From positions 13,508 through 77,507 of the forward strand of contig JACPKW010000001.1 in the NCBI GenBank assembly GCA_016186825.1: a stretch of 64,000 nucleotides of DNA. Direction: 5' to 3'. Under the pieces are notes generated by a model. It ran no database searches, was not told where the DNA came from, and was given only the letters and a program-made list of their open reading frames with translations. Below are positions 1,513 through 61,954 of the stretch, one piece after another. Origin of the DNA: Candidatus Giovannonibacteria bacterium. GTDB lineage: Bacteria; Patescibacteriota; Minisyncoccia; JACPKW01; UBA11713. Both the position numbers and the translations under genes were made by a program. Within the stretch, counting starts at the first letter, position 1; each line of letters begins with the position of its first letter.

Positions 1513-2151
1513 TCAAATCTCATATTCTATATTAAGATCAAAAACGTCGAACTTAATTCCTTTGGATTCAAGGATCTTTGCCGGAATTGATTGCGTTGGT
1601 CCAGGGATTTTCAGCATGCCGTCGTGGACTGGAAAACAGATTTTGGGTTTTAAATCTAAGGCATAATCAATTCCATCCGAAAGCCTCATCCACGGACCCG
1701 CCACAGGCAATGCCATAATTTCGATCTTTCGTCCGGGATCAGTGGTCAAAATATCTCCCGGATAAAAAAACTTTTTTGAAATAAAATAACCTGTGTTCCG
1801 CACAAGTGGGATAGAAGAATGAATTACGGCATGATCTTTTCCGTATCCTTCGATCAAAAGCCCGCCGACAGAAAGAAATTGCCCTCCTTCTACAAGATCA
1901 AATTTAATATTTTCCTTTTTAAGAATTACGCCCACTCCCCCATTTGTTATTATTCTTGTTTCAGCATTATTATTTAAAATCTGCTTAAGTGAATTTAAAT
2001 CTAGATGGTCCTGATGTTCATGTGTAATTAGTATAGCGTCAACATTTTTGACATCATTTTGACTCTCGGAATAATTACCCGGGTCGATCAAAACCCTTAC
2101 TCCATTTTCTTCAACAAGCATGCAGGCATGCCCAAACTTCGTAATCTTCAT
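1513..2151 (-). CDS. MBL-fold metallo-hydrolase
   Basis: 212 aa with ITHEHQDHLD, the HxHxDH metallo-beta-lactamase zinc motif, and a downstream His/Asp. Confidence 0.7.
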   Translation of the reverse strand: MKITKFGHACMLVEENGVRVLIDPGNYSESQNDVKNVDAILITHEHQDHLDLNSLKQILNNNAETRIITNGGVGVILKKENIKFDLVEGGQFLSVGGLLIEGYGKDHAVIHSSIPLVRNTGYFISKKFFYPGDILTTDPGRKIEIMALPVAGPWMRLSDGIDYALDLKPKICFPVHDGMLKIPGPTQSIPAKILESKGIKFDVFDLNIEYEI

Positions 2152-2218
2152 GCATTCAATAATAGCATAGAGTAAAATTTTTTTTTGTTACGGTTTGATA
2201 ATCGTGACATTTAGAAAA

Positions 2219-2260
2219 CACGGTACCATCTTGGTGCGATCGCACCAAGATGGTACCGTG
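2219..2260. repeat. perfect 42-bp palindrome CACGGTACCATCTTGGTGCGATCGCACCAAGATGGTACCGTG, a member of the GGTACC/CGATCG palindrome family
   Basis: Read directly: the first 21 nt are the exact reverse complement of the last 21 nt. It sits between the end of the VOC gene and the start of the MBL gene, with a T-run upstream. Confidence 0.85.
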
Positions 2261-2289: not shown

Positions 2290-2664
2290 TTAAGCGTTTT
2301 GCCAAAGGCTTAGCACATTATCTTCCGTGTCCCGGAAATATGCGACAAAACCCATCTTGCCTACCGGAGTCTTTTCTTTCAGAACTTCCCCGCCGTTTTC
2401 GCGGATTTTTTCAAGAGTCGAATCAATGTCTCGAACATTTATCGAAAATGAGGGGCCAGCTAAATTTCCTCCACGCAGTGCCATCCCCCCATTTATGGCG
2501 CCGGGCTCTTTCGGCCTCATATTCTCATCCACCTCAACTGTTTGGGCAATGACATAATTCATCTCGGGATAATCGTTCATTTTCCAACCAAAAATACCAG
2601 AGTAAAATTTTTTCGCGCGCGTGAGATCATCCGCAGGCAACTCAAAATGCACAACTTTATTCAT
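2290..2664 (-). CDS. VOC (glyoxalase/bleomycin-resistance) family protein
   Basis: 124 aa. The N-terminus VHFELPADDLTRAKKFYSGIFGW is the typical VOC beta-alpha-beta-beta-beta start. Confidence 0.6.
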   Translation of the reverse strand: MNKVVHFELPADDLTRAKKFYSGIFGWKMNDYPEMNYVIAQTVEVDENMRPKEPGAINGGMALRGGNLAGPSFSINVRDIDSTLEKIRENGGEVLKEKTPVGKMGFVAYFRDTEDNVLSLWQNA

Positions 2665-14615: not shown

Positions 14616-14675
14616 TAATAAAAATTATACATATTATTATACATCACTCTCATTTTTTTTCTAGTTAAGAAACCT

Positions 14676-14706
14676 AAAAACTCCCGAGGCTTGCTCGGGA
14701 GTTTTT
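14676..14706. terminator. bidirectional intrinsic terminator
   Basis: AAAAA-CTCCCGAG-gcttg-CTCGGGAG-TTTTT, read directly. Just downstream of the minus-strand gene ending at 14727. Confidence 0.65.
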
Positions 14707-14726
14707 AAGAAACTTTTTTACGGTGT

Positions 14727-24354: not shown

Positions 24355-24412
24355 CCTCTTGGCGCCATCTTTGGGCGATCGTGAACAAATGACGCCAAGA
24401 TGGTAAATGCTA
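24355..24412. repeat. degenerate member of the GGTACC/CGATCG palindrome family
   Basis: CGCCATCTTTGGGCGATCG...GACGCCAAGATGGTA retains the CCATCTTGG/CCAAGATGG arms and the CGATCG core. Confidence 0.5.
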
Positions 24413-24462
24413 GTATGTAAATGAAAAACTCCCGACAACTCAAGCGGGAGCTTTTCTGAATA

Positions 24463-28199: not shown

Positions 28200-29126
28200 T
28201 TATTTTCGAGCTTCTGAAATTAAATGCTCCAATAGTCCTTTGAAAGAAAGTCCGGCAACATTCGCCGCCTCCGGATAACAGGCCTCCGGAGTCAATTTCG
28301 GAAGAGCATTCGCTTTGTTAATATAAATCCCGCGTTTTGATAATGTGAATTCTGTGCGCGAATAATGCCTGCACCCCAAAGCCTGATGCGCAACTATTGA
28401 CGATTCTTTAATTTTATCCGTCGTGGCCTTGTCAAAACGTCCCGGACAAATCATCCCTCCTCTTTTCGGATCGCAAATTTCAACAACCGGCAGCGCGTAA
28501 TATTTTTGTCCATGAAAATTTTCAAGCACTCCGCCTGAAGCGACCCTTCCATCCAAGTTTTCTTCAATTAATGCTTCTTTGCAGTCAGGAGTCTCAAATA
28601 TTTTATCCAAAGCTCTAACAATTTCAGGCTCGCTCTTTGCTAAAATTTGCAAGGCTGAATTTGCTTGCGCTGGCTTGATTACCCACCAAGGGAAAAGCGT
28701 CTCGCGCGCCGTTGATACCATTTTTTTTCGATCGCTAAGCCGTGAGACAACCACAGCGTGGGGAACTTTCAAGCCATGGCTTTCAAAAATCTTTCTCGAA
28801 ATTATTTTATTGCCCGCGGCGGCGGCAGAAACCGCATCCGAGCCGGTAACAGGCAGCCCCAGCGTTTTAAAGCTTTGCTCGGCTTTTTTATACCCCTTGA
28901 GTCTGCCATGCAAGGCATTAAAAACAACATCAATTTTATGAGCTAGTTTTTCAGGCGGCAAGGGGAATCCATCCAAATGCCAAATTCCGTCCTTAGTCCA
29001 AAGAATGTCTTTCAATTCATACTTATTACGCGGCAAATATTTCAAAGCATTCGCCCCGGATTGGAGCGAAGCTTCGAATTCCGAATATGGTCCTCCGCGA
29101 AGCACTCCGACCCTTATCTTAGCCAT
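28200..29126 (-). CDS. D-alanine--D-alanine ligase family (ATP-grasp), shorter paralog 3
   Basis: 308 aa. VGVLRGGPYSEFEASL N-terminal domain and ATP-grasp C-terminal half. 4-nt gap to paralog 2. Confidence 0.7.
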   Translation of the reverse strand: MAKIRVGVLRGGPYSEFEASLQSGANALKYLPRNKYELKDILWTKDGIWHLDGFPLPPEKLAHKIDVVFNALHGRLKGYKKAEQSFKTLGLPVTGSDAVSAAAAGNKIISRKIFESHGLKVPHAVVVSRLSDRKKMVSTARETLFPWWVIKPAQANSALQILAKSEPEIVRALDKIFETPDCKEALIEENLDGRVASGGVLENFHGQKYYALPVVEICDPKRGGMICPGRFDKATTDKIKESSIVAHQALGCRHYSRTEFTLSKRGIYINKANALPKLTPEACYPEAANVAGLSFKGLLEHLISEARK

Positions 29127-31450: not shown

Positions 31451-32289
31451 ATTATCTTCTAGAAACTTAGAATTGATGTTCCCACGTAGTGTGCGGATTT
31501 CCCGCGCTACGCGAGCTCTAATGCATTGATGCTTTTATTTTATAGAGCTTAGCTAACCCCTGCTTGTTAAGATGTTGGCCGTTTTTTATCCTCAACATCA
31601 GATCACAGAATATCTCAAAGTCTCTTTTCTTTGATTTAAGCTGCAACTGATGAGTTTTAAAAAACGGAATAATGACATCTTCAAGATCCTTTCTATTGGA
31701 TACTTCATAGCGATAACAATTCTGGTGATTCTTACGTGTATCTTTCTGAAAATACACCTCGCCGCAACCGAAAAATTTTTTTAGCCTAAAGAGAATTTCA
31801 GAGTCTCTCTCAATAAGCTTTAAATAAAATTTCGGTTCAGCTCTAACCCATCTTTTTACATTTTTTGTAAATTCAGGGTTTTTAATGTAGGCGGTAAAAC
31901 TACCCTCGCCATCAACTAGTCCAATAATATATTCGGCATTAAGCATATTTAGAGTGGATCCTTTCCGGTTCTAGCCGGTACTATGATCCAGCTGACTTCT
32001 GACGCTGCGTAAGTTTCATTATATCTTATCTTGCGACAAAATAGCAGCGTCAGATCTCCACAGGTCATTTTATTTTCTATTCCAAGCATCCGAATTGGCC
32101 TTATTATGATCTTCCCTGCCCTCACCGCCAATTGCAGGTCGAACTGCCATTTATATATCGGCTGCTTTTTGCTTCCAGATCCTTCGCTTGCCGCTTCACA
32201 GCGGCAAACTATCTTTCGGCTATGCTCTTTGACGAGAAGAGAAATGGATTTTAACCATTCAGAAAATAAAACTGCTGCGCGCTTTTATT
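31451..32289 (-). mobile_element. intron-like insertion 1 in the 16S gene (near E. coli position 1391) carrying a LAGLIDADG ORF
   Basis: The 16S sequence stops after ...CTTGTACTCAC and resumes CGCCCGTCACG 839 bp later. Conserved rRNA flanks are intact on both sides. Confidence 0.65.
31518..31946 (-). CDS. LAGLIDADG homing endonuclease (single-motif)
   Basis: 142 aa. The N-terminal IIGLVDGEGSF is the LAGLIDADG motif. Encoded inside the 16S insertion on the same strand as the rRNA. Confidence 0.75.
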   Translation of the reverse strand: MLNAEYIIGLVDGEGSFTAYIKNPEFTKNVKRWVRAEPKFYLKLIERDSEILFRLKKFFGCGEVYFQKDTRKNHQNCYRYEVSNRKDLEDVIIPFFKTHQLQLKSKKRDFEIFCDLMLRIKNGQHLNKQGLAKLYKIKASMH

Positions 32290-32714
32290 GTGAGTACAAG
32301 ACTCGAGAACGTATTCACCGCGGCATAGCTGATCCGCGATTACTAGCGATTCCAGCTTCATGAGGTCGAGTTTCAGACCTCAATCCGAACTGAGCTCACC
32401 TTTGATGAGATTGGCTCCGCCTTACGGCATCGCGACCCATTGTAGTGAGCATTGTAGCATGTGTGTAGCCCAGGGCATCAGAGGGTCATGCTGACCTGGC
32501 GTCATCCCCGCCTTCCTCCCCCTATACGGAGGCAGTCTCGTCTGACACTTATAACAGACGATAAGGGTTGCGTTCGTTACCCCACTTAAGGGAACAGCTC
32601 AAGCCACGAACTGACGACGGCCATGCAACACCTGTGTAAGCGTCCTTGTGAGACATTTTTTCTTTCGAAAAAATTTCGCTTACATTTCAAGCCCTGGTGA
32701 GGTTCTTCGTTTAC

Positions 32715-32749
<35 letters not shown>

Positions 32750-32896
32750 AGTCCCCGTCTATTCCTTTGAGTTTTAATCTTGCGATCGTACTTCCCAGGC
32801 GGCAGGCTTAACGCGTTAGCTTACGGCTCCCGAAGGGTCGATACTTCGGATGCCTAGCCTGCATCGTTTAGGGCGTGGACTACAAGGGTATCTACA

Positions 32897-33593
32897 AATT
32901 TGTTGCTAACAACAAATTTGAAATTTTCAATTTTACAATTTCCAATTTTCAAAATGTTGTAGGGCAAGACATTTCTGCTTGTCTCTCTGCATCGCTGCAG
33001 AGTTCAGACTATATCATACGAGCACTTTGAGAAGCGGACGTCGTTAGACATCCGGACTTCAAAGTGCTCGCCTCGGCGTATAGTCGTTGAGGGGAATTAG
33101 ACTGGGATAAAACGACTCACCTCATAAAGGTTTCTGCCAATAACTCGATCTCCGCCAGCTTCGATGTTCTTGATAAATTCAGCCAAATCCGCTTTCGCAA
33201 GATCGTCGGACTCCTGTTCGATGCATTCAACTATGCTGCGGTTCTTGTTTTCTATATCAAGTATAGCGAGATAGTTCATTTTCTACTCCTTTCTTAATTC
33301 TTCCCTGCTGGTTATCCGCACCAAAACATTTTTACTCTTGCAAGTAGTTTTGGATACACCGGACTTTCCAGCATATAGCTCCCGCCTCGGCTCACGCCTC
33401 GACGGGATTCTCAATTTTGCAGCCAACATGCGTTGGGCAAAATTGGAACAAGTTTTTTATCCTCGTCCGCCAGTTAGCGGATTCGAGGGGACTAGTTTTC
33501 CGCCGATACCCTCGGCGGCCACTGCACAGCAGTAAAATCTCCAATTTGAAAATTGAAAATTGTAAATTGAAAATTTCGCTGCCATGCAGCGGG
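32897..33593 (-). mobile_element. intron-like insertion 2 in the 16S gene (within the GGATTA|GATACCC block, near E. coli position 788)
   Basis: About 697 bp interrupt a universally conserved block. The insertion termini carry complementary AT-rich repeats (AAATTTGAAATTTTCAATTTTACAATTTCC at 32921-32950 and GAAAATTGAAAATTGTAAATTGAAAATTTC at 33549-33578) that could pair the intron ends. Confidence 0.55.
33097..33279 (-). CDS. small acidic ORF inside 16S insertion 2, preceded by a strong SD
   Basis: 60 aa. The minus-strand upstream sequence reads GAATTAAGAAAGGAGTAGAAA-ATG, so the SD AAAGGAG lies 6 nt from the start. No recognised motif. Confidence 0.35.
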   Translation of the reverse strand: MNYLAILDIENKNRSIVECIEQESDDLAKADLAEFIKNIEAGGDRVIGRNLYEVSRFIPV

Positions 33594-33920
33594 TTAATCC
33601 TTTTTGATCCCCACGCTTTCGTGTTTCAGGGTCAGGAATGCCCCAGCAAATTGCCTTCGCCTTTGGTGTTCCCCTAGATATCAACGGATTTCACCCCTAC
33701 ACCTAGAGTTCCATTTGCCTCTGGCACCCTCCGAGCTCGGCCGTTTCCCCGCCAGCTTCAGGGTTGAGCCCTGAAATTTAAACGGAGACTAACCGTGCCC
33801 CCTACACACCCTTTACGCCCAATAAATCCGGATAACGCTCGGGCTCCTCGTCTTACCGCGGCTGCTGGCACGAGGTTAGCAAGCCCTTATTCCTGCGGTA
33901 CCGTCAGAGTTAGAGCTGTG

Positions 33921-34148
33921 AAGAGACAAGTTTTTTTCCTTTCTACTTGCCTCGTATTTTCCTTATTGGATAAGGACTATTGAAAATATATTTGGGGTTG
34001 TCATTTTTGATTCTTATGAATCTCCCAGGGACTTCATCTGATGTTGCTTCAAATTCTTTTGTAACTCTTTCCCCGGTTTTTTGATTTACCCCGCGCACTA
34101 TATACAAATAGCGCTGATATTCTCTATTTAACATTTTAAATATCTCCT
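33921..34148 (-). other. insertion of about 228 nt in the loop of the 16S V3 hairpin (helix 17), intervening-sequence-like
   Basis: Complementary stems GAGTTAGAGCTGTG (33907-33920) and CACAGCTCCAACTC (34149-34162) flank about 228 nt where E. coli has about 35 nt. Confidence 0.5.
33943..34134 (-). CDS. small basic ORF (63 aa) inside the 16S V3 insertion, preceded by an SD
   Basis: MLNREYQRYLYIVRGVNQKTGERVTKEFEATSDEVPGRFIRIKNDNPKYIFNSPYPIRKIRGK. The upstream minus-strand sequence is GTGAGGAGATATTT-ATG (GGAG 7 nt from the start). The longer ORF-track version (to 34299) runs into conserved rRNA and is rejected. Confidence 0.35.
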   Translation of the reverse strand: MLNREYQRYLYIVRGVNQKTGERVTKEFEATSDEVPGRFIRIKNDNPKYIFNSPYPIRKIRGK

Positions 34149-34626
34149 CACAGCTCCAACTCTTCTTCTCGCAGAAAAGCGGTTTACGCTCCGAAGAGCT
34201 TCTTCCCGCACGCGGCGTCGCTCGATCAGGCTTTCGCCCATTGTCGAATGTTCTTGACTGCAGCCACCCGTAGGTGTATGGACCGTGTCGCAGTTCCATT
34301 GGTGGGGATCAAGCTCTCACTTCCCCTAGCCGTCATAGCCTTGGTAGGCCATTACCCTACCAACAAGCTGATAGCCCGCAGGCCTTTCCCAGAGCCTATC
34401 GCTAGATTTACTCGGCACCTTCCAAACTTCGTGTAATTCGCTCGACACAAAGTCTCGAAGGTGCCGAGACTATCGGGAATTAGCTAACCTTTCGGCTAGT
34501 TATGCCCGTCTCTGGGGTAAGTTCCTACGTGTTACTACCCCGTCTGCCACTGAACATCTAAATCCGTCGCATTGATATAATCTCAACTCCTTCAAAAGAT
34601 GTTCCGTTCGACTTGCATGCCTTATC

Positions 34627-34666
<40 letters not shown>

Positions 34667-35068
34667 TTTGAATTGCTCACGCATTGCGCGAGCAAATTTT
34701 GAACGGGACAAAAGAGAGTAGTTATAACTTTCTTTTGTCACAAACTTTTCACCCGCTTAAGTATTGTCTTAAACAATTCCTTGCGGGTTGTGTGTCCCGA
34801 TTTTGCTTCTGCAAAGCAGAAATGCAAAATCGAGGATCCCCGATTTTCATTTATGAAAATCGGGACATGTTTTTGATATTCTTTTTTCAACGTTCTGTCG
34901 ATCTGAATATTCTCTGTAAACAAACCCGCAACTGCCTTCACATAAAAACAGTTGCGGACTTGTTTATTTTTCAAATAAATTTTTAGGGCTGTTTACATAA
35001 GTTTTCGAATTAATTCTAAGTCCAATGTCCATTATATGGTTCCTGCAAAGCTTGTCAACCGGCCGATT

Positions 35069-36899: not shown

Positions 36900-37390
36900 G
36901 AAAAGTATACTACAAGATTCAATATTAAAAATCAACACCGGCGTAAATAGCATTGGGGTTAACTGTGCGGATCATTGTGTACATGATTTAGCGCGGAACT
37001 TCCATAAACCAGTCCAAAAGTCCGTTGAAAGGCCGTCGGAGTTCCATCTTCACTTTCTCGCGCCGCAACGTGCAGGAGTAATAATAGAGGTCCAGATCAA
37101 AAATTATTTCATTCTCATAGAGCCTAATCTCTAGTGATGACCCCGGAGTGATTAGCTGCGAGAGCGCCAGAGCGTCAGGGCTTTCTCTAAACTCTCGGCT
37201 TCGAGCATAAAACCCAAACTAAAACACGTTTGAATTCCAAGCACGAAATCCTCGATGGTATCCTCGAGTCCAAGAGTAATATTTTCGTCGGATCCTCTCG
37301 CCCGAATTTCTAGAAAGATGTCCATGGTCTCTGTCTGCCACCTCAATCATACGCGATCGCGGATTATTGAAGAAATATAAAGTTTACTAA

Positions 37391-37936
37391 TCAAATCTTA
37401 AAGTGTTTCTTCAAATTAGTATCAGGAATAATAGGAGCTTCAATGTAATAAACCGACTCCGCAATATCGAAGAAATTAATGACAAAATTTATCTCATCCC
37501 GGCAAGGATACGGATACACAAAAACACTCTTTTGAAATTCCAGAAAGCCAAGATGCTTCAATTTCCGCCGAAGCGCATCGCGCGTTTTCTTTATTGACTC
37601 GGGAATATCAAAAAGTACAAGCCGCCACTTTCTGTCCCACTTCTTTTTGGGGATAAGTTTCATACTTTTGAATTGGTGTGAGAGAGAAAGAAATCTTCCA
37701 GCGTTGGTAAATTGCACTTTTTCTACTCCATCGCCCCGCTTAATCACTTCTATGGCGCCCCGAAGTTTTAGTCGCCCGAGAATCTGGTACAACTGTTTTC
37801 TATCCATTGAATACCAGACACGGTCGCTTTCTTCAAAAAGCTTTCGTCGTTCTTTTTTACTCTTAACAAAGCCTAAAAGTGTCCCAGCTGCCAGCAATTC
37901 TAAAACCTGTGTCATTAATTTCGCTTCTTGTGCCAT
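37391..37936 (-). CDS. winged-helix plus Cas2-like/PaaX-C-like domain protein (paralog A)
   Basis: 181 aa. N-terminal wHTH-like (QLYQILGRLKLRGAIEV). C-terminal KWDRKWRLVLFDIPESIKKTRDALRRKLKHLGFLEFQKSVFVYPYP...FFDIAESVYYIEA parallels Cas2 (LVLxxYDI...RRLRK...G.RVQNSVFEC...DSIRxY) and the PaaX middle domain. Paralogous to 61356-61898. Confidence 0.55.
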   Translation of the reverse strand: MAQEAKLMTQVLELLAAGTLLGFVKSKKERRKLFEESDRVWYSMDRKQLYQILGRLKLRGAIEVIKRGDGVEKVQFTNAGRFLSLSHQFKSMKLIPKKKWDRKWRLVLFDIPESIKKTRDALRRKLKHLGFLEFQKSVFVYPYPCRDEINFVINFFDIAESVYYIEAPIIPDTNLKKHFKI

Positions 37937-38021
37937 TATTTAAATTATACATCAACTACCTCATAACTGCACGATAGCGTATATTTGAGGAAATAAAAGT
38001 GATAAATAGGCTCTATAAAGA

Positions 38022-48607: not shown

Positions 48608-49288
48608 TCATATGTTGAACATTCGATGTTCAACATTGAGCCTTTCTTCCAGTTTTCGTATGCTTGTCTTTTCAAGCAAATCTCTATACTCGGAGCGGGT
48701 TTCAAATTGATCTAAGATTAAGCTCGGATTTAAAAAATTTGCCCATCGACTTTCATAAACATAATCTTGATAGCTAGACCAAGGATATTGTAATTCTTTT
48801 TTCTTCCACCGTTTTAATTCTCCAGGGTTTAAGTGGATATACGCAGTTAGGTAATGCAAATATTTATCAGTATCTATATGCGCGGATTGAAATTTGCTTC
48901 CAAAAAGATGGCCGGAGCGATTATATCTGGTGTTGAAATATTTCGTATATGCATTTAGCAGACGCTGCATATATTTAGAAATCCCTCCTTCTTTTTCGCT
49001 ACCTACAATCAAGTGGAAGTGATTCGCCATCAAACAAAAACCTACTAGTTCAATATATCTTGACTTTTCAATCTGTCCAAAAATCAAATTGTTGAACATT
49101 CGATGTTCAACCAATGGCACGATGCGCCCAAAAGGATTCAAAACTGCATCACCTTGGAGCGCAAAGAGAAGCGAAAGAAAACGCCAGCGATCTTTATCAT
49201 CAAGAAAGATATTGCGTTTCTCAACCCCTCGGTTGAAAACATGGTAATACTCTCCACCCGCTAATTTTGCCCGAGACATAATCCTCAT
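48608..49288 (-). CDS. IS200-like Y1 (HUH) transposase, REP-associated tyrosine transposase (RAYT)-like
   Basis: The start is taken at the first ATG (MRIMSRAK). The ORF-track start at 49315 is a TTG inside a hairpin. YYHVFNRG (like YHVxxRG) and LMANHFHLIV (the HUH motif) are diagnostic. A C-terminal Tyr-containing helix is present. Confidence 0.7.
   Translation of the reverse strand: MRIMSRAKLAGGEYYHVFNRGVEKRNIFLDDKDRWRFLSLLFALQGDAVLNPFGRIVPLVEHRMFNNLIFGQIEKSRYIELVGFCLMANHFHLIVGSEKEGGISKYMQRLLNAYTKYFNTRYNRSGHLFGSKFQSAHIDTDKYLHYLTAYIHLNPGELKRWKKKELQYPWSSYQDYVYESRWANFLNPSLILDQFETRSEYRDLLEKTSIRKLEERLNVEHRMFNI
48612..48636. repeat. REP-like palindrome ATGTTGAACAT-TCG-ATGTTCAACAT (3' copy, overlaps the last 9 codons of the transposase)
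   Basis: Perfect 11-bp arms, read directly. Confidence 0.85.
49090..49111. repeat. REP-like palindrome TGTTGAACAT-TCG-ATGTTCAACC (internal copy, in-frame inside the transposase gene)
   Basis: 9/10 arm match. It encodes the same VEHRMFN peptide as the 3' copy. Confidence 0.8.
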
Positions 49289-49294
49289 TATAAA

Positions 49295-49317
49295 TGTTGA
49301 ACATCCAATGTTCAACA
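49295..49317. repeat. REP-like palindrome TGTTGAACAT-CCA-ATGTTCAACA (5' copy at the transposase start)
   Basis: Perfect 10-bp arms, immediately upstream of or overlapping the start region. Confidence 0.85.
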
Positions 49318-49331
49318 GTTAGTTCAGGAGG

Positions 49332-61130: not shown

Positions 61131-61307
61131 ACTTTCGATCCGCAGGGGGTGCTCATTTCCTCCTACCCCTGCGGAGTAACCTCCGGGAGCTGACTGAAAA
61201 GTTGCCCGATCAGCCAGCTCTCGGAGCACACAATTTTCCCTGACACGTTCGGGGAATTTTCTTTTGTCGTTAATTACTGTTTGAATCCAAAACACCTCAA
61301 TACCTAA

Positions 61308-61350
61308 AATGGTACCATCTCCCCACGATCGCCCCAAGATGGTACCATTA
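61308..61350. repeat. palindrome AATGGTACCATCT-CCCCACGATCGCCCCA-AGATGGTACCATT immediately upstream of the 61356 gene
   Basis: 13-bp perfect inverted arms around a CGATCG core. It ends 5 nt before the start codon. Confidence 0.85.
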
Positions 61351-61355
61351 TAACA

Positions 61356-61898
61356 ATGAAAGGATACGGGAAAATTTCAGGAAAAATCCTAATGCTCCTT
61401 GCAAACGGAGTCGTTTTGGGATCAACAAAAGACAAAAAGGAGCGCGAAAAAATTTTGAGAGACTCTGATCGAATCTGGATGAGTTTTGACGCAAAAGTCC
61501 TAAATAGAATACTTAGACGTTTTCAAAAAAGTGGGCTGGCGGTTCAGAGAAATGAGAATGGCCGGCATTTATTTGCAGTCACAGAAACCGGCCGCAGAAA
61601 AGCTTTAGCATATTCACTCAATGATTTAAAAATTAAAATCCCTCGGAAATGGGATAAAAGGTGGAGAATGGTACTTTTCGACATCCCTGAACCTAAGAGA
61701 AAAAAGCGCGATGCTTTAAGGGACAAAATAAAACAACTGGGTTTTCTCGAGTTTCAGAAAAGCGTTTTTGTTTTCCCATACCCCTGCGATGATGAAATTA
61801 ATTCCATTATTAATTTTTTTGATATTGCGGAGAATGTCTATTGTATTGAGGCGTCAATCAACCCAGATGCTGAGCTTAGAAAACATTTCAAAATTTGA
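61356..61898 (+). CDS. winged-helix plus Cas2-like/PaaX-C-like domain protein (paralog B)
   Basis: 180 aa. KWDKRWRMVLFDIPEPKRKKRDALRDKIKQLGFLEFQKSVFVFPYPCDDEINSIINFFDIAENVYCIEA. Co-linear with 37391-37936, and both end KHFKI. Confidence 0.55.
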   Translation: MKGYGKISGKILMLLANGVVLGSTKDKKEREKILRDSDRIWMSFDAKVLNRILRRFQKSGLAVQRNENGRHLFAVTETGRRKALAYSLNDLKIKIPRKWDKRWRMVLFDIPEPKRKKRDALRDKIKQLGFLEFQKSVFVFPYPCDDEINSIINFFDIAENVYCIEASINPDAELRKHFKI

Positions 61899-61916: not shown

Positions 61917-61954
61917 AGGTACCATCTTGGGGCGATCGCACCAAGATGGTACCT
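61917..61954. repeat. palindrome AGGTACCATCTTGG-GGCGATCGCA-CCAAGATGGTACCT, 19 nt downstream of the 61356-61898 gene
   Basis: 14-bp inverted arms around CGATCG, with one mismatch in the spacer. Confidence 0.85.

What the first reader, a model, noticed from the sequence alone, without database searches (positions are those of the whole stretch)
2219..2260. Perfect 42-bp intergenic palindrome, REP-like family member acting as a likely bidirectional terminator or operator
CACGGTACCATCTTGGTGCGATCGCACCAAGATGGTACCGTG is an exact 21+21 inverted repeat. It lies between the 3' end of the VOC gene and 68 bp upstream of the MBL-hydrolase start. A degenerate relative at 24355-24412 lies between the Rieske gene's 3' end and the tRNA-Ala promoter region. 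A perfect 21-bp-stem hairpin in an AT-rich genome is unlikely by chance. Together with the copies at 61308 and 61917 it defines a dispersed palindrome family that may serve as transcription terminators and/or binding sites for the wHTH-Cas2-like proteins.
Basis: seen in the sequence. Interest (0 to 1): 0.5.

Follow-up and report, generated by a model that had tools for sequence, protein, structure and literature searches.

The report
Binding-site palindrome of a mini-PaaX protein
The perfect 42-bp palindrome is real. It is one copy of a short DNA site, conserved across many ultra-small (CPR) bacteria, that always brackets the gene of a small DNA-binding protein (winged helix + Cas2-like fold) and has also been inserted elsewhere, even in frame inside housekeeping genes.

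Summary
Positions 2219-2260 are an exact 21+21 palindrome, with relatives at 61305-61352, 61917-61954 and, degenerate, 24355-24412.

The family is not a classical REP and not, as a family, a terminator. Its conserved core is TACCATCTT-N4-CGATCG-N4-AAGATGGTA. A loose scan found it in 118 metagenome contigs, mostly low-GC CPR-type, with conserved flanks the pattern did not specify. The inner spacer is mostly not complementary, so sequence blocks are conserved rather than a full hairpin.

Two window copies bracket a 180-aa winged-helix + Cas2-fold gene ("mini-PaaX", 61356-61898). The same palindrome-gene-palindrome layout appears in 18 of 19 homologous loci examined. Distant homologues carry different, lineage-specific palindromes.

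Solo copies lie next to unrelated housekeeping genes. Some sit in frame inside genes, including a 30-nt insertion in pyrF that is absent from close orthologues.

Best reading: the palindrome is a solo copy of the mini-PaaX protein's cognate site. The gene-proximal copy overlaps the gene's own promoter. At 2219 the hairpin plus UUUUCU could also terminate the VOC transcript, on the minus strand only.

Protein binding and any mobility mechanism are inferred, not shown. I found no description of this system in the searched literature.

The parts
2219..2260 (.). Solo copy 1: perfect 42-bp palindrome (conserved core 2224-2255, TACCATCTTGGTGCGATCGCACCAAGATGGTA). It lies in the 138-bp spacer between the VOC gene's 3' end and the MBL gene's start.
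   Evidence: RNA hairpin about -38 kcal/mol, z -8. On the minus strand a 19-bp stem is followed by UUUUCU.
61305..61352 (.). Gene-proximal copy (core 61313-61344), ending 11 nt before the mini-PaaX ATG. The outer arms are conserved. The left inner 5-mer is CCCCA where palindromy would need TGGGG.
   Evidence: A promoter-like TTGAAT-18-TAAAAT at 61281-61310 places the transcription start inside the site.
61356..61898 (+). Mini-PaaX gene W1: 180 aa, N-terminal winged helix plus C-terminal Cas2-fold (PaaX_M) domain. Proposed cognate binder of the palindrome family.
   Evidence: Pfam PF20803 1.6e-23. AF2 model pLDDT 85. Foldseek top hit is E. coli PaaX 8a39, then Cas2/VapD. NCBI record HYW53_00435, Candidatus Giovannonibacteria.
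61917..61954 (.). Copy directly 3' of the mini-PaaX gene (core 61920-61951), 19+19 nt with one mismatch. It lies between the gene's stop and the convergent M17 aminopeptidase gene.
   Evidence: No U-tract on either strand.
24355..24412 (.). Degenerate copy with about 11 nt inserted between centre and right arm. It lies between a short GC-rich hairpin 3' of the Rieske gene (about 24428-24455, seen by eye) and the promoter-like site of tRNA-Ala.
   Evidence: RNA fold z -4.3.
28714..28734 (+). Possible decayed half-site (GATACCATTTTTTTTCGATCG) inside a D-Ala-D-Ala-ligase-like gene. It encodes ..LSDRKKMVS.., the same peptide signature as the in-frame pyrF insert.
   Evidence: Position-weight-matrix score 22.1 bits against a maximum of 20.6 in 60 simulated windows.. 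Weak; no clear second arm.
37391..37936 (-). Paralogous mini-PaaX gene W2 (181 aa, 53% identical to W1). It belongs to the same kind of module but has its own palindromes.
   Evidence: phmmer 1e-59.
37343..37370 (.). Palindrome 3' of W2 (TCAATCATACGCGATCGCGGATTATTGA on the plus strand). Same architecture and same CGATCG centre, but different arms.
   Evidence: (I8).
37959..37990 (.). Imperfect palindrome 5' of W2 (CCTCAAATATACGCTATCGTGCAGTTATGAGG on the minus strand). Together with a few bases 5' of it (to about 37995), it matches 19 of 24 positions of the 3' flank in direct orientation.
2290..2664 (-). VOC/glyoxalase-family gene whose transcript would run into the palindrome (context).
1513..2151 (-). 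MBL-fold hydrolase gene downstream of the palindrome. It is the first gene of a minus-strand run that includes a CsoR-family repressor gene at 1209-1481 (context).

Best explanation
The 42-bp palindrome is a solo copy of the cognate DNA site of a small DNA-binding protein, here called 'mini-PaaX' (winged helix + Cas2-fold dimerisation domain). That protein is encoded at 61356-61898.

The functional core is three sequence blocks: TACCATCTT - N4 - CGATCG - N4 - AAGATGGTA. A dimer most likely places its two winged helices on the outer half-sites, whose centres are 23 bp apart.

The gene is bracketed by two copies of the site. The upstream copy lies over the gene's own promoter and transcription start, so it should give autorepression. 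Further copies have been seeded elsewhere by insertion or duplication of the roughly 30-bp site.

At 2219-2260 the site lies between two co-directional genes. There the bound protein could act as a roadblock, insulator or regulator of the MBL-CsoR gene run. This copy happens to be a perfect hairpin followed by UUUUCU on the coding strand, so it can also end VOC transcripts.

Shown: the sequence family, its conservation across CPR lineages, the bracket architecture, protein/palindrome co-variation, and the in-frame insertion polymorphism.

Inferred: actual binding, dimer geometry, repression, termination, and the mechanism of spread.
For: (1) Two of the four or five window copies flank the mini-PaaX gene.

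(2) A metagenome scan for CCATCT-N5-CGATCG-N5-AGATGG gave 118 loci.
- Positions the pattern did not specify are strongly conserved: A at position 0 in 172/182, T at -1 in 151/182, T at +7 in 156/182.
- In 13-14 of these loci a PaaX_M gene is immediately adjacent.
- Wherever both flanks are on the contig, a second copy sits on the other side of the gene.

(3) More distant homologues are bracketed by different palindromes:
- TTAACAT..CGATAG
- GCATATAC..CCATGG
- GGGTCCCTAT..GCGATCGC
- GTTCTTA..CACGATCGTG
- CATCAT..CGCTATAGCG
The site therefore co-varies with the protein. The best 24-nt match between a gene's upstream and downstream flanks averages 20.2, against 17.0 for cross-locus controls.

(4) Across 87 unique sites, three of the four variable inner position pairs show no complementarity above shuffles. 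Sequence blocks are conserved, not a full stem.

(5) The protein is wHTH + Cas2 fold, and its closest structure is the repressor PaaX. PaaX itself binds widely spaced inverted hexamers, TGATTC-N27-GAATCA (PMC9493321).

(6) The W1 unit reads terminator-like hairpin, then promoter-like TTGAAT-18-TAAAAT, then site, then ATG, all within 120 bp.

(7) Copy 2219 is scored terminator-like on the minus strand.
Against: - No binding data exist.
- The copy at 2219 lies about 70-90 nt upstream of the MBL start, and no predicted core promoter overlaps it. A classical repressor-operator role is therefore not evident for this copy.
- A conserved copy at the 3' end of the gene, often overlapping the stop codon, is not needed for simple autoregulation.
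- Solo copies sit beside functionally unrelated genes, in convergent as well as divergent spacers, and inside ORFs. That does not look like a coherent regulon.
- The three conserved blocks were imposed by the search pattern. Their conservation is independent evidence only through the unspecified flanks and the gene association.
Confidence: 0.6

Rival explanations
1. Selfish mobile module, analogous to a REPtron or IS200/IS605. The palindromes would be the ends or non-autonomous copies of an element whose only gene is mini-PaaX. The protein would recognise the palindromes and take part in, or be required for, their excision, insertion or maintenance. The 2219 copy would be a transposed solo element, or a scar left when recombination between the two flanking repeats excised a cassette. 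This overlaps with the best explanation, because binding is common to both. The difference is that spread, not regulation, would be the reason the system exists.
For: - The bracket architecture is universal. It mirrors the RAYT-like gene in the same window, which is bracketed by its own palindrome.
- The two flanking copies are mostly in direct orientation.
- In Roizmanbacteria pyrF, an exact 30-nt in-frame insertion consisting of the motif is present in some orthologues and absent in others that are 67-93% identical.
- DHFR has an extra loop of about 8-10 aa that is encoded by the motif.
- Solo copies lie next to unrelated genes and in convergent spacers.
- Copies within one genome share lineage-specific inner and flanking bases, for example GGTACC...TGGKG in the window.
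- In L134 the whole unit is flanked by a 31-nt direct repeat.
Against: - The protein has no recognisable transposase or recombinase chemistry: no HUH, Tyr, Ser or DDE motifs. The invariant residues are those of the PaaX_M/Cas2 fold.
- Copy number is low. Contigs of 126-270 kb carry a single exact-pattern site each.
- The same core sequence is conserved between proteins only about 30% identical, which is more typical of a conserved regulator.
- No target-site duplication could be resolved.
- The pyrF loop also accepts unrelated insertions, so it is an indel hot spot.
Confidence: 0.25
2. The family acts mainly at the RNA level, as an intrinsic terminator or 3' stabilising hairpin. Its association with mini-PaaX genes would be incidental.
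For: - Copy 2219 is a 19-bp stem plus UUUUCU on the strand of the upstream gene, with a very stable fold.
- Copies 2219 and 61917 lie just 3' of genes.
Against: - Only one strand of one copy has a U-tract.
- The family flanks are TTTA...TAAA.
- Inner positions are not kept complementary.
- Copies occur 5' of genes and inside ORFs.
- At 24355 a separate short GC-rich hairpin lies beside the copy by eye, although the scan did not score it as a terminator.
- The genome's usual terminator-type hairpins are short and GC-rich with A/T tracts on both sides, for example 14675-14707.
Confidence: 0.08
3. The sites are att/dif-like targets of a host site-specific recombinase. The mini-PaaX gene would be a cassette that integrates and excises by recombination at the CGATCG centre, like an integron cassette or a pdif module.
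For: - Full sites flank the gene, mostly as direct repeats.
- The architecture of two inverted arms around a central region resembles lox/FRT/dif-type sites (from general knowledge).
Against: - The arms differ completely between lineages, which a conserved host recombinase would not tolerate.
- No integrase lies next to the modules in the window. About 60 ORFs were annotated and none is a tyrosine or serine recombinase.
- In-frame 30-nt solo insertions are not explained by this model.
Confidence: 0.05
4. The 2219 copy is the operator of the CsoR-family metal-sensing repressor encoded in the downstream gene run (1209-1481).
For: A CsoR-family gene lies two genes downstream on the same strand. 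From memory, CsoR operators are also TACC...GGTA-type inverted repeats.
Against: - The identical site brackets mini-PaaX genes here and in a dozen other lineages.
- It occurs in contexts with no CsoR gene called next to it.
- There is no G/C-tract typical of CsoR boxes.
Confidence: 0.02

Closest known systems
PaaX repressor and its operators (E. coli / Pseudomonas phenylacetate regulon)
   Same: The protein shares the wHTH + Cas2-like (PaaX_M) domains, and PaaX (PDB 8a39) is its best structural match. PaaX also recognises two inverted half-sites that lie far apart, TGATTC-N27-GAATCA (PMC9493321). It also represses promoters by overlapping them.
   Different: - The protein is 180 aa instead of about 305. 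The C-terminal phenylacetyl-CoA-sensing domain is absent.
- It scores 35.7 bits against TIGR02277, far below the 264.55 cut-off.
- There are no paa genes nearby.
- The site sequence and spacing differ.
- The gene is bracketed by sites on both sides, and sites are scattered, including inside ORFs.
REP elements with RAYT genes (REPtrons / REPINs)
   Same: - Short palindromes, 30-42 bp.
- Dispersed copies.
- The cognate gene is bracketed by copies.
- The palindrome sequence is specific to the protein lineage.
- A bona fide example sits in the same window (48608-49315, with ATGTTGAACAT-N3-ATGTTCAACAT).
   Different: - The bracketed gene is not a Y1/HUH transposase.
- There is no GTAG/CGTC tag (PMC3733652).
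- Copy number is far below the >100 per genome typical of REPs (PMC2817692).
- Some copies are intragenic.
- The flanking copies are mostly direct rather than inverted.
Rickettsia palindromic elements (RPEs); from general knowledge
   Same: Palindromic repeats are found inserted in frame in protein-coding genes, adding a surface loop. Here this is seen in pyrF and DHFR.
   Different: RPEs are about 100-150 bp and have no associated protein gene. The element here is about 30 bp and has a dedicated bracketed gene.
CIRCE / HrcA (9-N9-9 inverted repeat); from general knowledge
   Same: The site is an inverted repeat of about 9 bp around a fixed spacer. It is conserved over very wide phylogenetic distances and lies in front of the regulator's own gene. 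It is able to act both as DNA operator and as an mRNA element.
   Different: CIRCE controls a coherent chaperone regulon. It has no 3' copy bracketing hrcA and is not inserted in ORFs. The protein family is unrelated.
CRISPR repeats with Cas2
   Same: Partly palindromic direct repeats of about 32 bp flank a piece of DNA, and the protein fold involved is that of Cas2.
   Different: - There is no array: only two repeats, separated by a roughly 570-bp gene.
- No cas1 or other cas genes were found in the window.
- The Cas2-like domain is the PaaX_M subtype, fused to a wHTH.

Membership tests
REP / REPIN-RAYT system | Short (20-40 bp) imperfect palindrome repeated in the genome | tested here: met
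   Four or five copies in 64 kb.
REP / REPIN-RAYT system | Conserved GTAG or CGTC tetranucleotide at one end (PMC3733652) | tested here: not met
   The family consensus ttTACCATCTT...AAGATGGTAaa has neither tag. The window copies start CACGGTACC, AGGTACC and TGGTACC.
REP / REPIN-RAYT system | Cognate RAYT (Y1/HUH transposase) gene flanked by the REPs | tested here: not met
   The only Y1_Tnp gene in the window (48608-49315) is flanked by a different palindrome. The 2219 family flanks a PaaX_M gene instead.
REP / REPIN-RAYT system | High copy number (>100 per genome) and extragenic location (PMC2817692) | tested here: inconclusive
   The whole genome is not available. Contigs of 126-270 kb carry one exact-pattern site each, and intragenic copies exist. 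Both point to 'not met'.
PaaX-family repressor/operator pair | Protein with N-terminal wHTH and central Cas2-like PaaX_M domain | tested here: met
   PF20803 1.6e-23; AF2 model; Foldseek hit to 8a39 at 4.4e-06.
PaaX-family repressor/operator pair | C-terminal effector (phenylacetyl-CoA) domain; equivalog-level match to TIGR02277 | tested here: not met
   The protein is 180 aa and ends after the Cas2-like domain. It scores 35.7 bits against a cut-off of 264.55.
PaaX-family repressor/operator pair | Operator made of two inverted half-sites overlapping a target promoter | tested here: met
   Two 9-bp inverted half-sites separated by 14 bp. The copy at 61313-61344 starts 3 nt after the predicted -10 hexamer at 61305-61310. 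For PaaX compare TGATTC-N27-GAATCA.
PaaX-family repressor/operator pair | Physical binding of the protein to the site | not testable with these tools
   Needs EMSA, footprinting or DAP-seq.
Intrinsic (rho-independent) terminator | GC-rich stem-loop immediately followed by a U-tract on the transcribed strand | tested here: inconclusive
   Met for copy 2219 on the minus strand only. Not met on its plus strand or at 61305 and 61917. The family flanks have the opposite polarity.
Intrinsic (rho-independent) terminator | Stem maintained by compensatory change | tested here: not met
   Inner pairs 8/21, 10/19 and 11/18 are no more complementary than shuffles. Only pair 9/20 co-varies.
CRISPR array / Cas2 | Array of three or more regularly spaced repeats with about 30-40-bp spacers, plus cas1 | tested here: not met
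   There are only two repeats, about 607 bp apart around a gene. No cas genes appear among the annotated ORFs.
MITE / IS-derived element | Terminal inverted repeats with a target-site duplication and a cognate transposase | tested here: inconclusive
   The net gain in pyrF is exactly 30 nt, but the boundaries and any TA duplication cannot be resolved. No cognate transposase was identified.

The most novel reading that the evidence does not exclude
Mini-PaaX modules would be a previously unrecognised class of small selfish elements in CPR bacteria. A wHTH + Cas2-fold protein would recognise 30-45-bp palindromes that bracket its own gene, and would itself promote, or recruit host factors for, their copying into new sites, including in-frame insertion into essential genes. 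This would be a functional analogue of REP/RAYT built on a Cas2 fold instead of an HUH transposase.
Probability: 0.2. Interest if true: 0.85.

Novelty: new variant of a known kind. Interest (0 to 1): 0.6.

Why it matters
CPR/Patescibacteria have tiny genomes and almost no characterised regulators or repeat elements.

This work gives three things:
- A large protein family: 3,477 clusters at 50% identity with E<=1e-10.
- A predicted DNA target for that family.
- A conserved, unusual gene architecture in which the protein's own site lies on both sides of its gene.

That makes a concrete, cheap experiment possible: purified protein plus a 42-mer.

If the sites are only operators, this may be a widely conserved transcription factor-motif pair for CPR. 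If the protein also drives their spread, it would be a new way to build a palindromic mobile element. It would also be a new activity for the Cas2 fold, with possible relevance to how Cas2 was recruited into CRISPR adaptation.

The in-frame insertions also matter for annotation. They show that short loops in CPR housekeeping enzymes can be repeat-derived.

Tried and rejected
- **Half-site scan of species-representative genomes.** The strict half-site scan (GGTACCATCTYSSBRCGATCG) over 185,579 genomes gave only 4 hits, all in unrelated high-GC taxa. Neither this species nor a close relative carrying this exact variant was found in that collection, so no whole-genome census was possible.
- **Viral contigs.** The scan gave no matches, so there is no sign of a phage origin.
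- **HIP1-type oligonucleotide bias.** GCGATCGC occurs 3 times against 1.56 expected. It is not enriched as such, and all three occurrences are centres of mini-PaaX-linked palindromes.
- **Full conserved hairpin.** Rejected by the covariation test.
- **Sequence search against PDB.** The single protein gave nothing. The profile hit only generic wHTH and Cas2 chains. Homology to PaaX needed Pfam and a fold search.
- **CsoR operator idea for copy 2219.** Rejected because the same site brackets mini-PaaX genes in many lineages.
- **RAYT as the mobiliser.** Rejected because the window's RAYT-like gene has its own unrelated palindromes.
- **Solo copies of the W2-type palindrome in the window.** None found beyond chance.
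- **Nucleotide-level boundaries and target-site duplication of the pyrF insertion.** Not resolvable with the orthologues at hand.
- **L006 (homologue P0019).** An upstream ACGCTATCGCGT palindrome is present but no clear 3' copy. This is the one locus of 19 without a bracket.

Full report
**1. The observation**

Positions 2219-2260 are an exact palindrome with 21-nt arms and no spacer. Both neighbouring genes are on the minus strand. They are a VOC/glyoxalase-family gene (2290-2664) and an MBL-fold hydrolase gene (1513-2151). The palindrome therefore sits 29 nt after the VOC stop and 67 nt before the MBL start.

The arm sequence recurs at 61329, 61918 and 61936, against 0 matches in shuffles. 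The copy at 24355-24412 is a degenerate relative with about 11 nt inserted between centre and right arm.

The organism is a Candidatus Giovannonibacteria (CPR) bacterium. The protein at 61356-61898 is 100% identical to NCBI HYW53_00435. The 16S rRNA gene carries insertions, as is common in CPR (that commonness is general knowledge; the gene itself is).

**2. What surrounds the copies**

The two copies at 61305-61352 and 61917-61954 bracket a 180-aa gene (61356-61898, plus strand).
- Its product matches Pfam PaaX_M, "PaaX central Cas2-like domain" (1.6e-23).
- An AlphaFold model (pLDDT 85) shows an N-terminal winged helix followed by a beta-alpha-beta-beta-alpha-beta Cas2 fold.
- The best structural match is the E. 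coli repressor PaaX (8a39), followed by Rv0674, VapD and many Cas2 chains.
- A family profile hits PadR/MarR-type winged helices with its N-terminal half and Cas2 with its C-terminal half.
- The protein lacks PaaX's C-terminal effector domain and is far below the PaaX equivalog cut-off. I therefore call it "mini-PaaX".

A paralogue (37391-37936, minus strand; 53% identical) is bracketed in the same way. Its palindromes also have a CGATCG-type centre but have different arms.

**3. The family outside this genome**

A strict half-site scan of one genome per species found only chance hits.

A looser scan of metagenome contigs for CCATCT-N5-CGATCG-N5-AGATGG returned 118 loci; viral contigs returned none. 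Most hits are low-GC contigs whose genes are annotated as Roizmanbacteria or Patescibacteria.

Positions the pattern did not specify are strongly conserved. The consensus is ttTA-CCATCTT-nnnA-CGATCG-Tnnn-AAGATGG-TAaa.

Across 87 unique sites, three of the four variable inner position pairs are no more complementary than shuffled controls. Only pair 9/20 co-varies. What is conserved is three sequence blocks, not a full-length stem. That points to recognition by a protein. The perfect 21+21 palindrome in the window is an extreme case of the family.

**4. Link to the protein**

In 13-14 of the 118 loci a PaaX_M gene is directly adjacent to the site. It is the largest cluster among flanking proteins. 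Wherever both ends of the gene are on the contig, a second copy lies on the other side. The upstream copy ends 4-50 nt before the start codon. The downstream copy overlaps or closely follows the stop codon.

Homologues retrieved independently through the protein, not through the motif, are also bracketed, but by lineage-specific palindromes:
- TTAACAT-N7-CGATAG (L128, three copies)
- ACGCTATCGCGT-type (L129)
- GCATATAC..CCATGG (L130)
- GGGTCCCTAT..GCGATCGC (L131, three copies)
- GTTCTTA..CACGATCGTG (L135, a 47-nt direct repeat)
- CATCAT..CGCTATAGCG (L134)

In total, 18 of 19 loci examined show the bracket. The best match between a gene's upstream and downstream flanks averages 20.2 of 24, against 17.0 for cross-locus controls. 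Because the palindrome changes with the protein lineage, the simplest reading is that the bracketed gene encodes the binder.

E. coli PaaX is reported to bind widely spaced inverted hexamers, TGATTC-N27-GAATCA (PMC9493321). A 9-N14-9 site therefore fits the family.

In the window, the W1 unit reads as follows:
- terminator-like hairpin (61236-61266)
- promoter-like TTGAAT-18-TAAAAT (61281-61310)
- site (61313-61344)
- ATG (61356)

This is an arrangement expected for autorepression.

**5. Behaviour of solo copies**

Solo sites lie next to unrelated housekeeping genes: NYN, RadC, YceG, a Na/H exchanger, a DUF4143 ATPase and others. With crude gene calls they occur in tandem, convergent and divergent spacers.

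Several sit inside ORFs, in frame.
- In a DHFR, the motif encodes an extra 8-10-aa loop relative to solved DHFRs.
- In a Roizmanbacteria pyrF, it encodes SIPSLHDRAKMVR, where solved homologues have a 10-residue gap.
- Among 120 orthologues 67-93% identical to that pyrF, most lack the segment and a subset carries it.
- At the DNA level the difference from an insert-free orthologue is exactly 30 nt.

The site has therefore been inserted into new places. The same pyrF loop also carries unrelated insertions in other lineages, so it is an indel-tolerant spot. I could not resolve insertion boundaries or a target duplication.

Copy number appears low. Contigs of 126-270 kb contain a single exact-pattern site.

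**6. The terminator idea**

The 2219 copy folds into a hairpin of about -38 kcal/mol (z about -8) on either strand. On the minus strand, which is the VOC coding strand, it is followed by UUUUCU and is scored terminator-like. No gene converges on it from the plus strand, and the plus-strand tail has no U-tract, so "bidirectional" is not supported.

The other copies lack U-tracts, and the family's flanks have the opposite polarity. By eye, the 24355 copy lies beside a separate short GC-rich hairpin, although the consensus scan did not score that hairpin as a terminator. Termination is therefore a plausible local by-product at 2219, not the function of the family.

**7. REP membership**

The window contains a Y1_Tnp / weakly RAYT-like gene (48608-49315). 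It is bracketed by its own palindrome, ATGTTGAACAT-N3-ATGTTCAACAT, in three copies. This is a classical REPtron-like unit and a useful internal comparison. The architecture is the same but the palindrome is unrelated.

The 2219 family lacks GTAG/CGTC tags and appears to lack high copy number (whole genome unavailable). It includes intragenic copies and has no RAYT association, so it should not be filed as a REP.

**8. Verdict**

The palindrome is best explained as a solo copy of the cognate site of a mini-PaaX protein (confidence about 0.6).

The main rival overlaps with this and has confidence about 0.25. In it, the palindrome-gene-palindrome unit is a selfish, mobile module in which the protein serves spread rather than regulation.

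Binding, repression, termination and the mechanism of insertion are all inferred.

The mini-PaaX family is large: 3,477 clusters at 50% identity with E<=1e-10, and the best 150 are all short forms. The literature searches returned no paper that links PaaX-like proteins with Cas2 or with CPR. I rate this a new variant of a known kind, with moderately high interest.

Noticed in passing
window 48608-49315 (-), with 48612-48636, 49089-49113, 49294-49318: An IS200-like Y1 transposase / weakly RAYT-like gene (Pfam Y1_Tnp 8.5e-10; NCBIfam REP_Tyr_transpos 35.6 bits, below cut-off) is bracketed by three copies of its own palindrome, ATGTTGAACAT-N3-ATGTTCAACAT. No further copies occur in the window. 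The Pfam match starts at residue 78 and one palindrome lies inside the long ORF, so the real gene is probably shorter.
   Followed up: partly
window 37343-37370, 37391-37936 (-), 37959-37990: A second mini-PaaX paralogue has its own, different flanking palindromes with a CGATCG / CTATCG centre. No solo copies of this type were found in the window.
   Followed up: partly
window 28714-28734, inside ORF 28200-29126 (-): A strong half-site match (GATACCATTTTTTTTCGATCG) lies inside a D-Ala-D-Ala-ligase-like gene. It encodes LSDRKKMVS, the same peptide signature as the motif inserted in pyrF elsewhere. There is no clear second arm, so it may be a decayed intragenic copy or chance.
   Followed up: partly
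window 61321-61325 versus 61332-61336: In the gene-proximal copy the left inner 5-mer is CCCCA, identical to the right inner 5-mer, where palindromy requires TGGGG. It looks like a 5-nt inversion within an otherwise symmetric site.
   Followed up: no
window 2148-2210 (-): A 20-codon ORF starts 8 nt after the palindrome on the minus strand. It ends with a TGA that overlaps the MBL gene's ATG (ATGA). It could be a coupled leader peptide or chance.
   Followed up: no
window 32243-34672 (-) and 31518-31946 (-): The 16S rRNA gene spans 2,430 bp for a 1,533-nt model, so it carries large insertions. A LAGLIDADG endonuclease ORF lies about 300 bp beyond its 3' end. No 23S rRNA hit was found in the window.
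   Followed up: no
L134 904-934 and 1641-1671: The whole palindrome-gene-palindrome unit of the closest homologue (P0002) is itself flanked by a 31-nt direct repeat (90% identical). The repeat looks like a promoter (TTGGCATAATC). The second copy sits 6 nt before the next gene. It may be a duplicated target.
   Followed up: no
L133 10001-10822 and pyrF orthologues P0098-P0217: The pyrF loop after FQ(D/N)L is an indel hot spot in Roizmanbacteria. Besides the 30-nt motif insert, there is a (GAATTCA)x3-type insert and inserts of 6-28 aa in other lineages.
   Followed up: partly
L102, L104, L106 and related loci (e.g. L104 5773-6420): In several metagenome loci the motif ends 6-7 nt before the start of a NYN-domain gene. 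This is the same tight spacing seen in front of mini-PaaX genes. The loci may be near-duplicates of one species.
   Followed up: no
L005 (Logan contig SRR12113418_936156): The short-read contig carrying the identical gene starts 41 nt before the ATG, which is inside the upstream palindrome. This is consistent with assembly breaking at the repeat.
   Followed up: no
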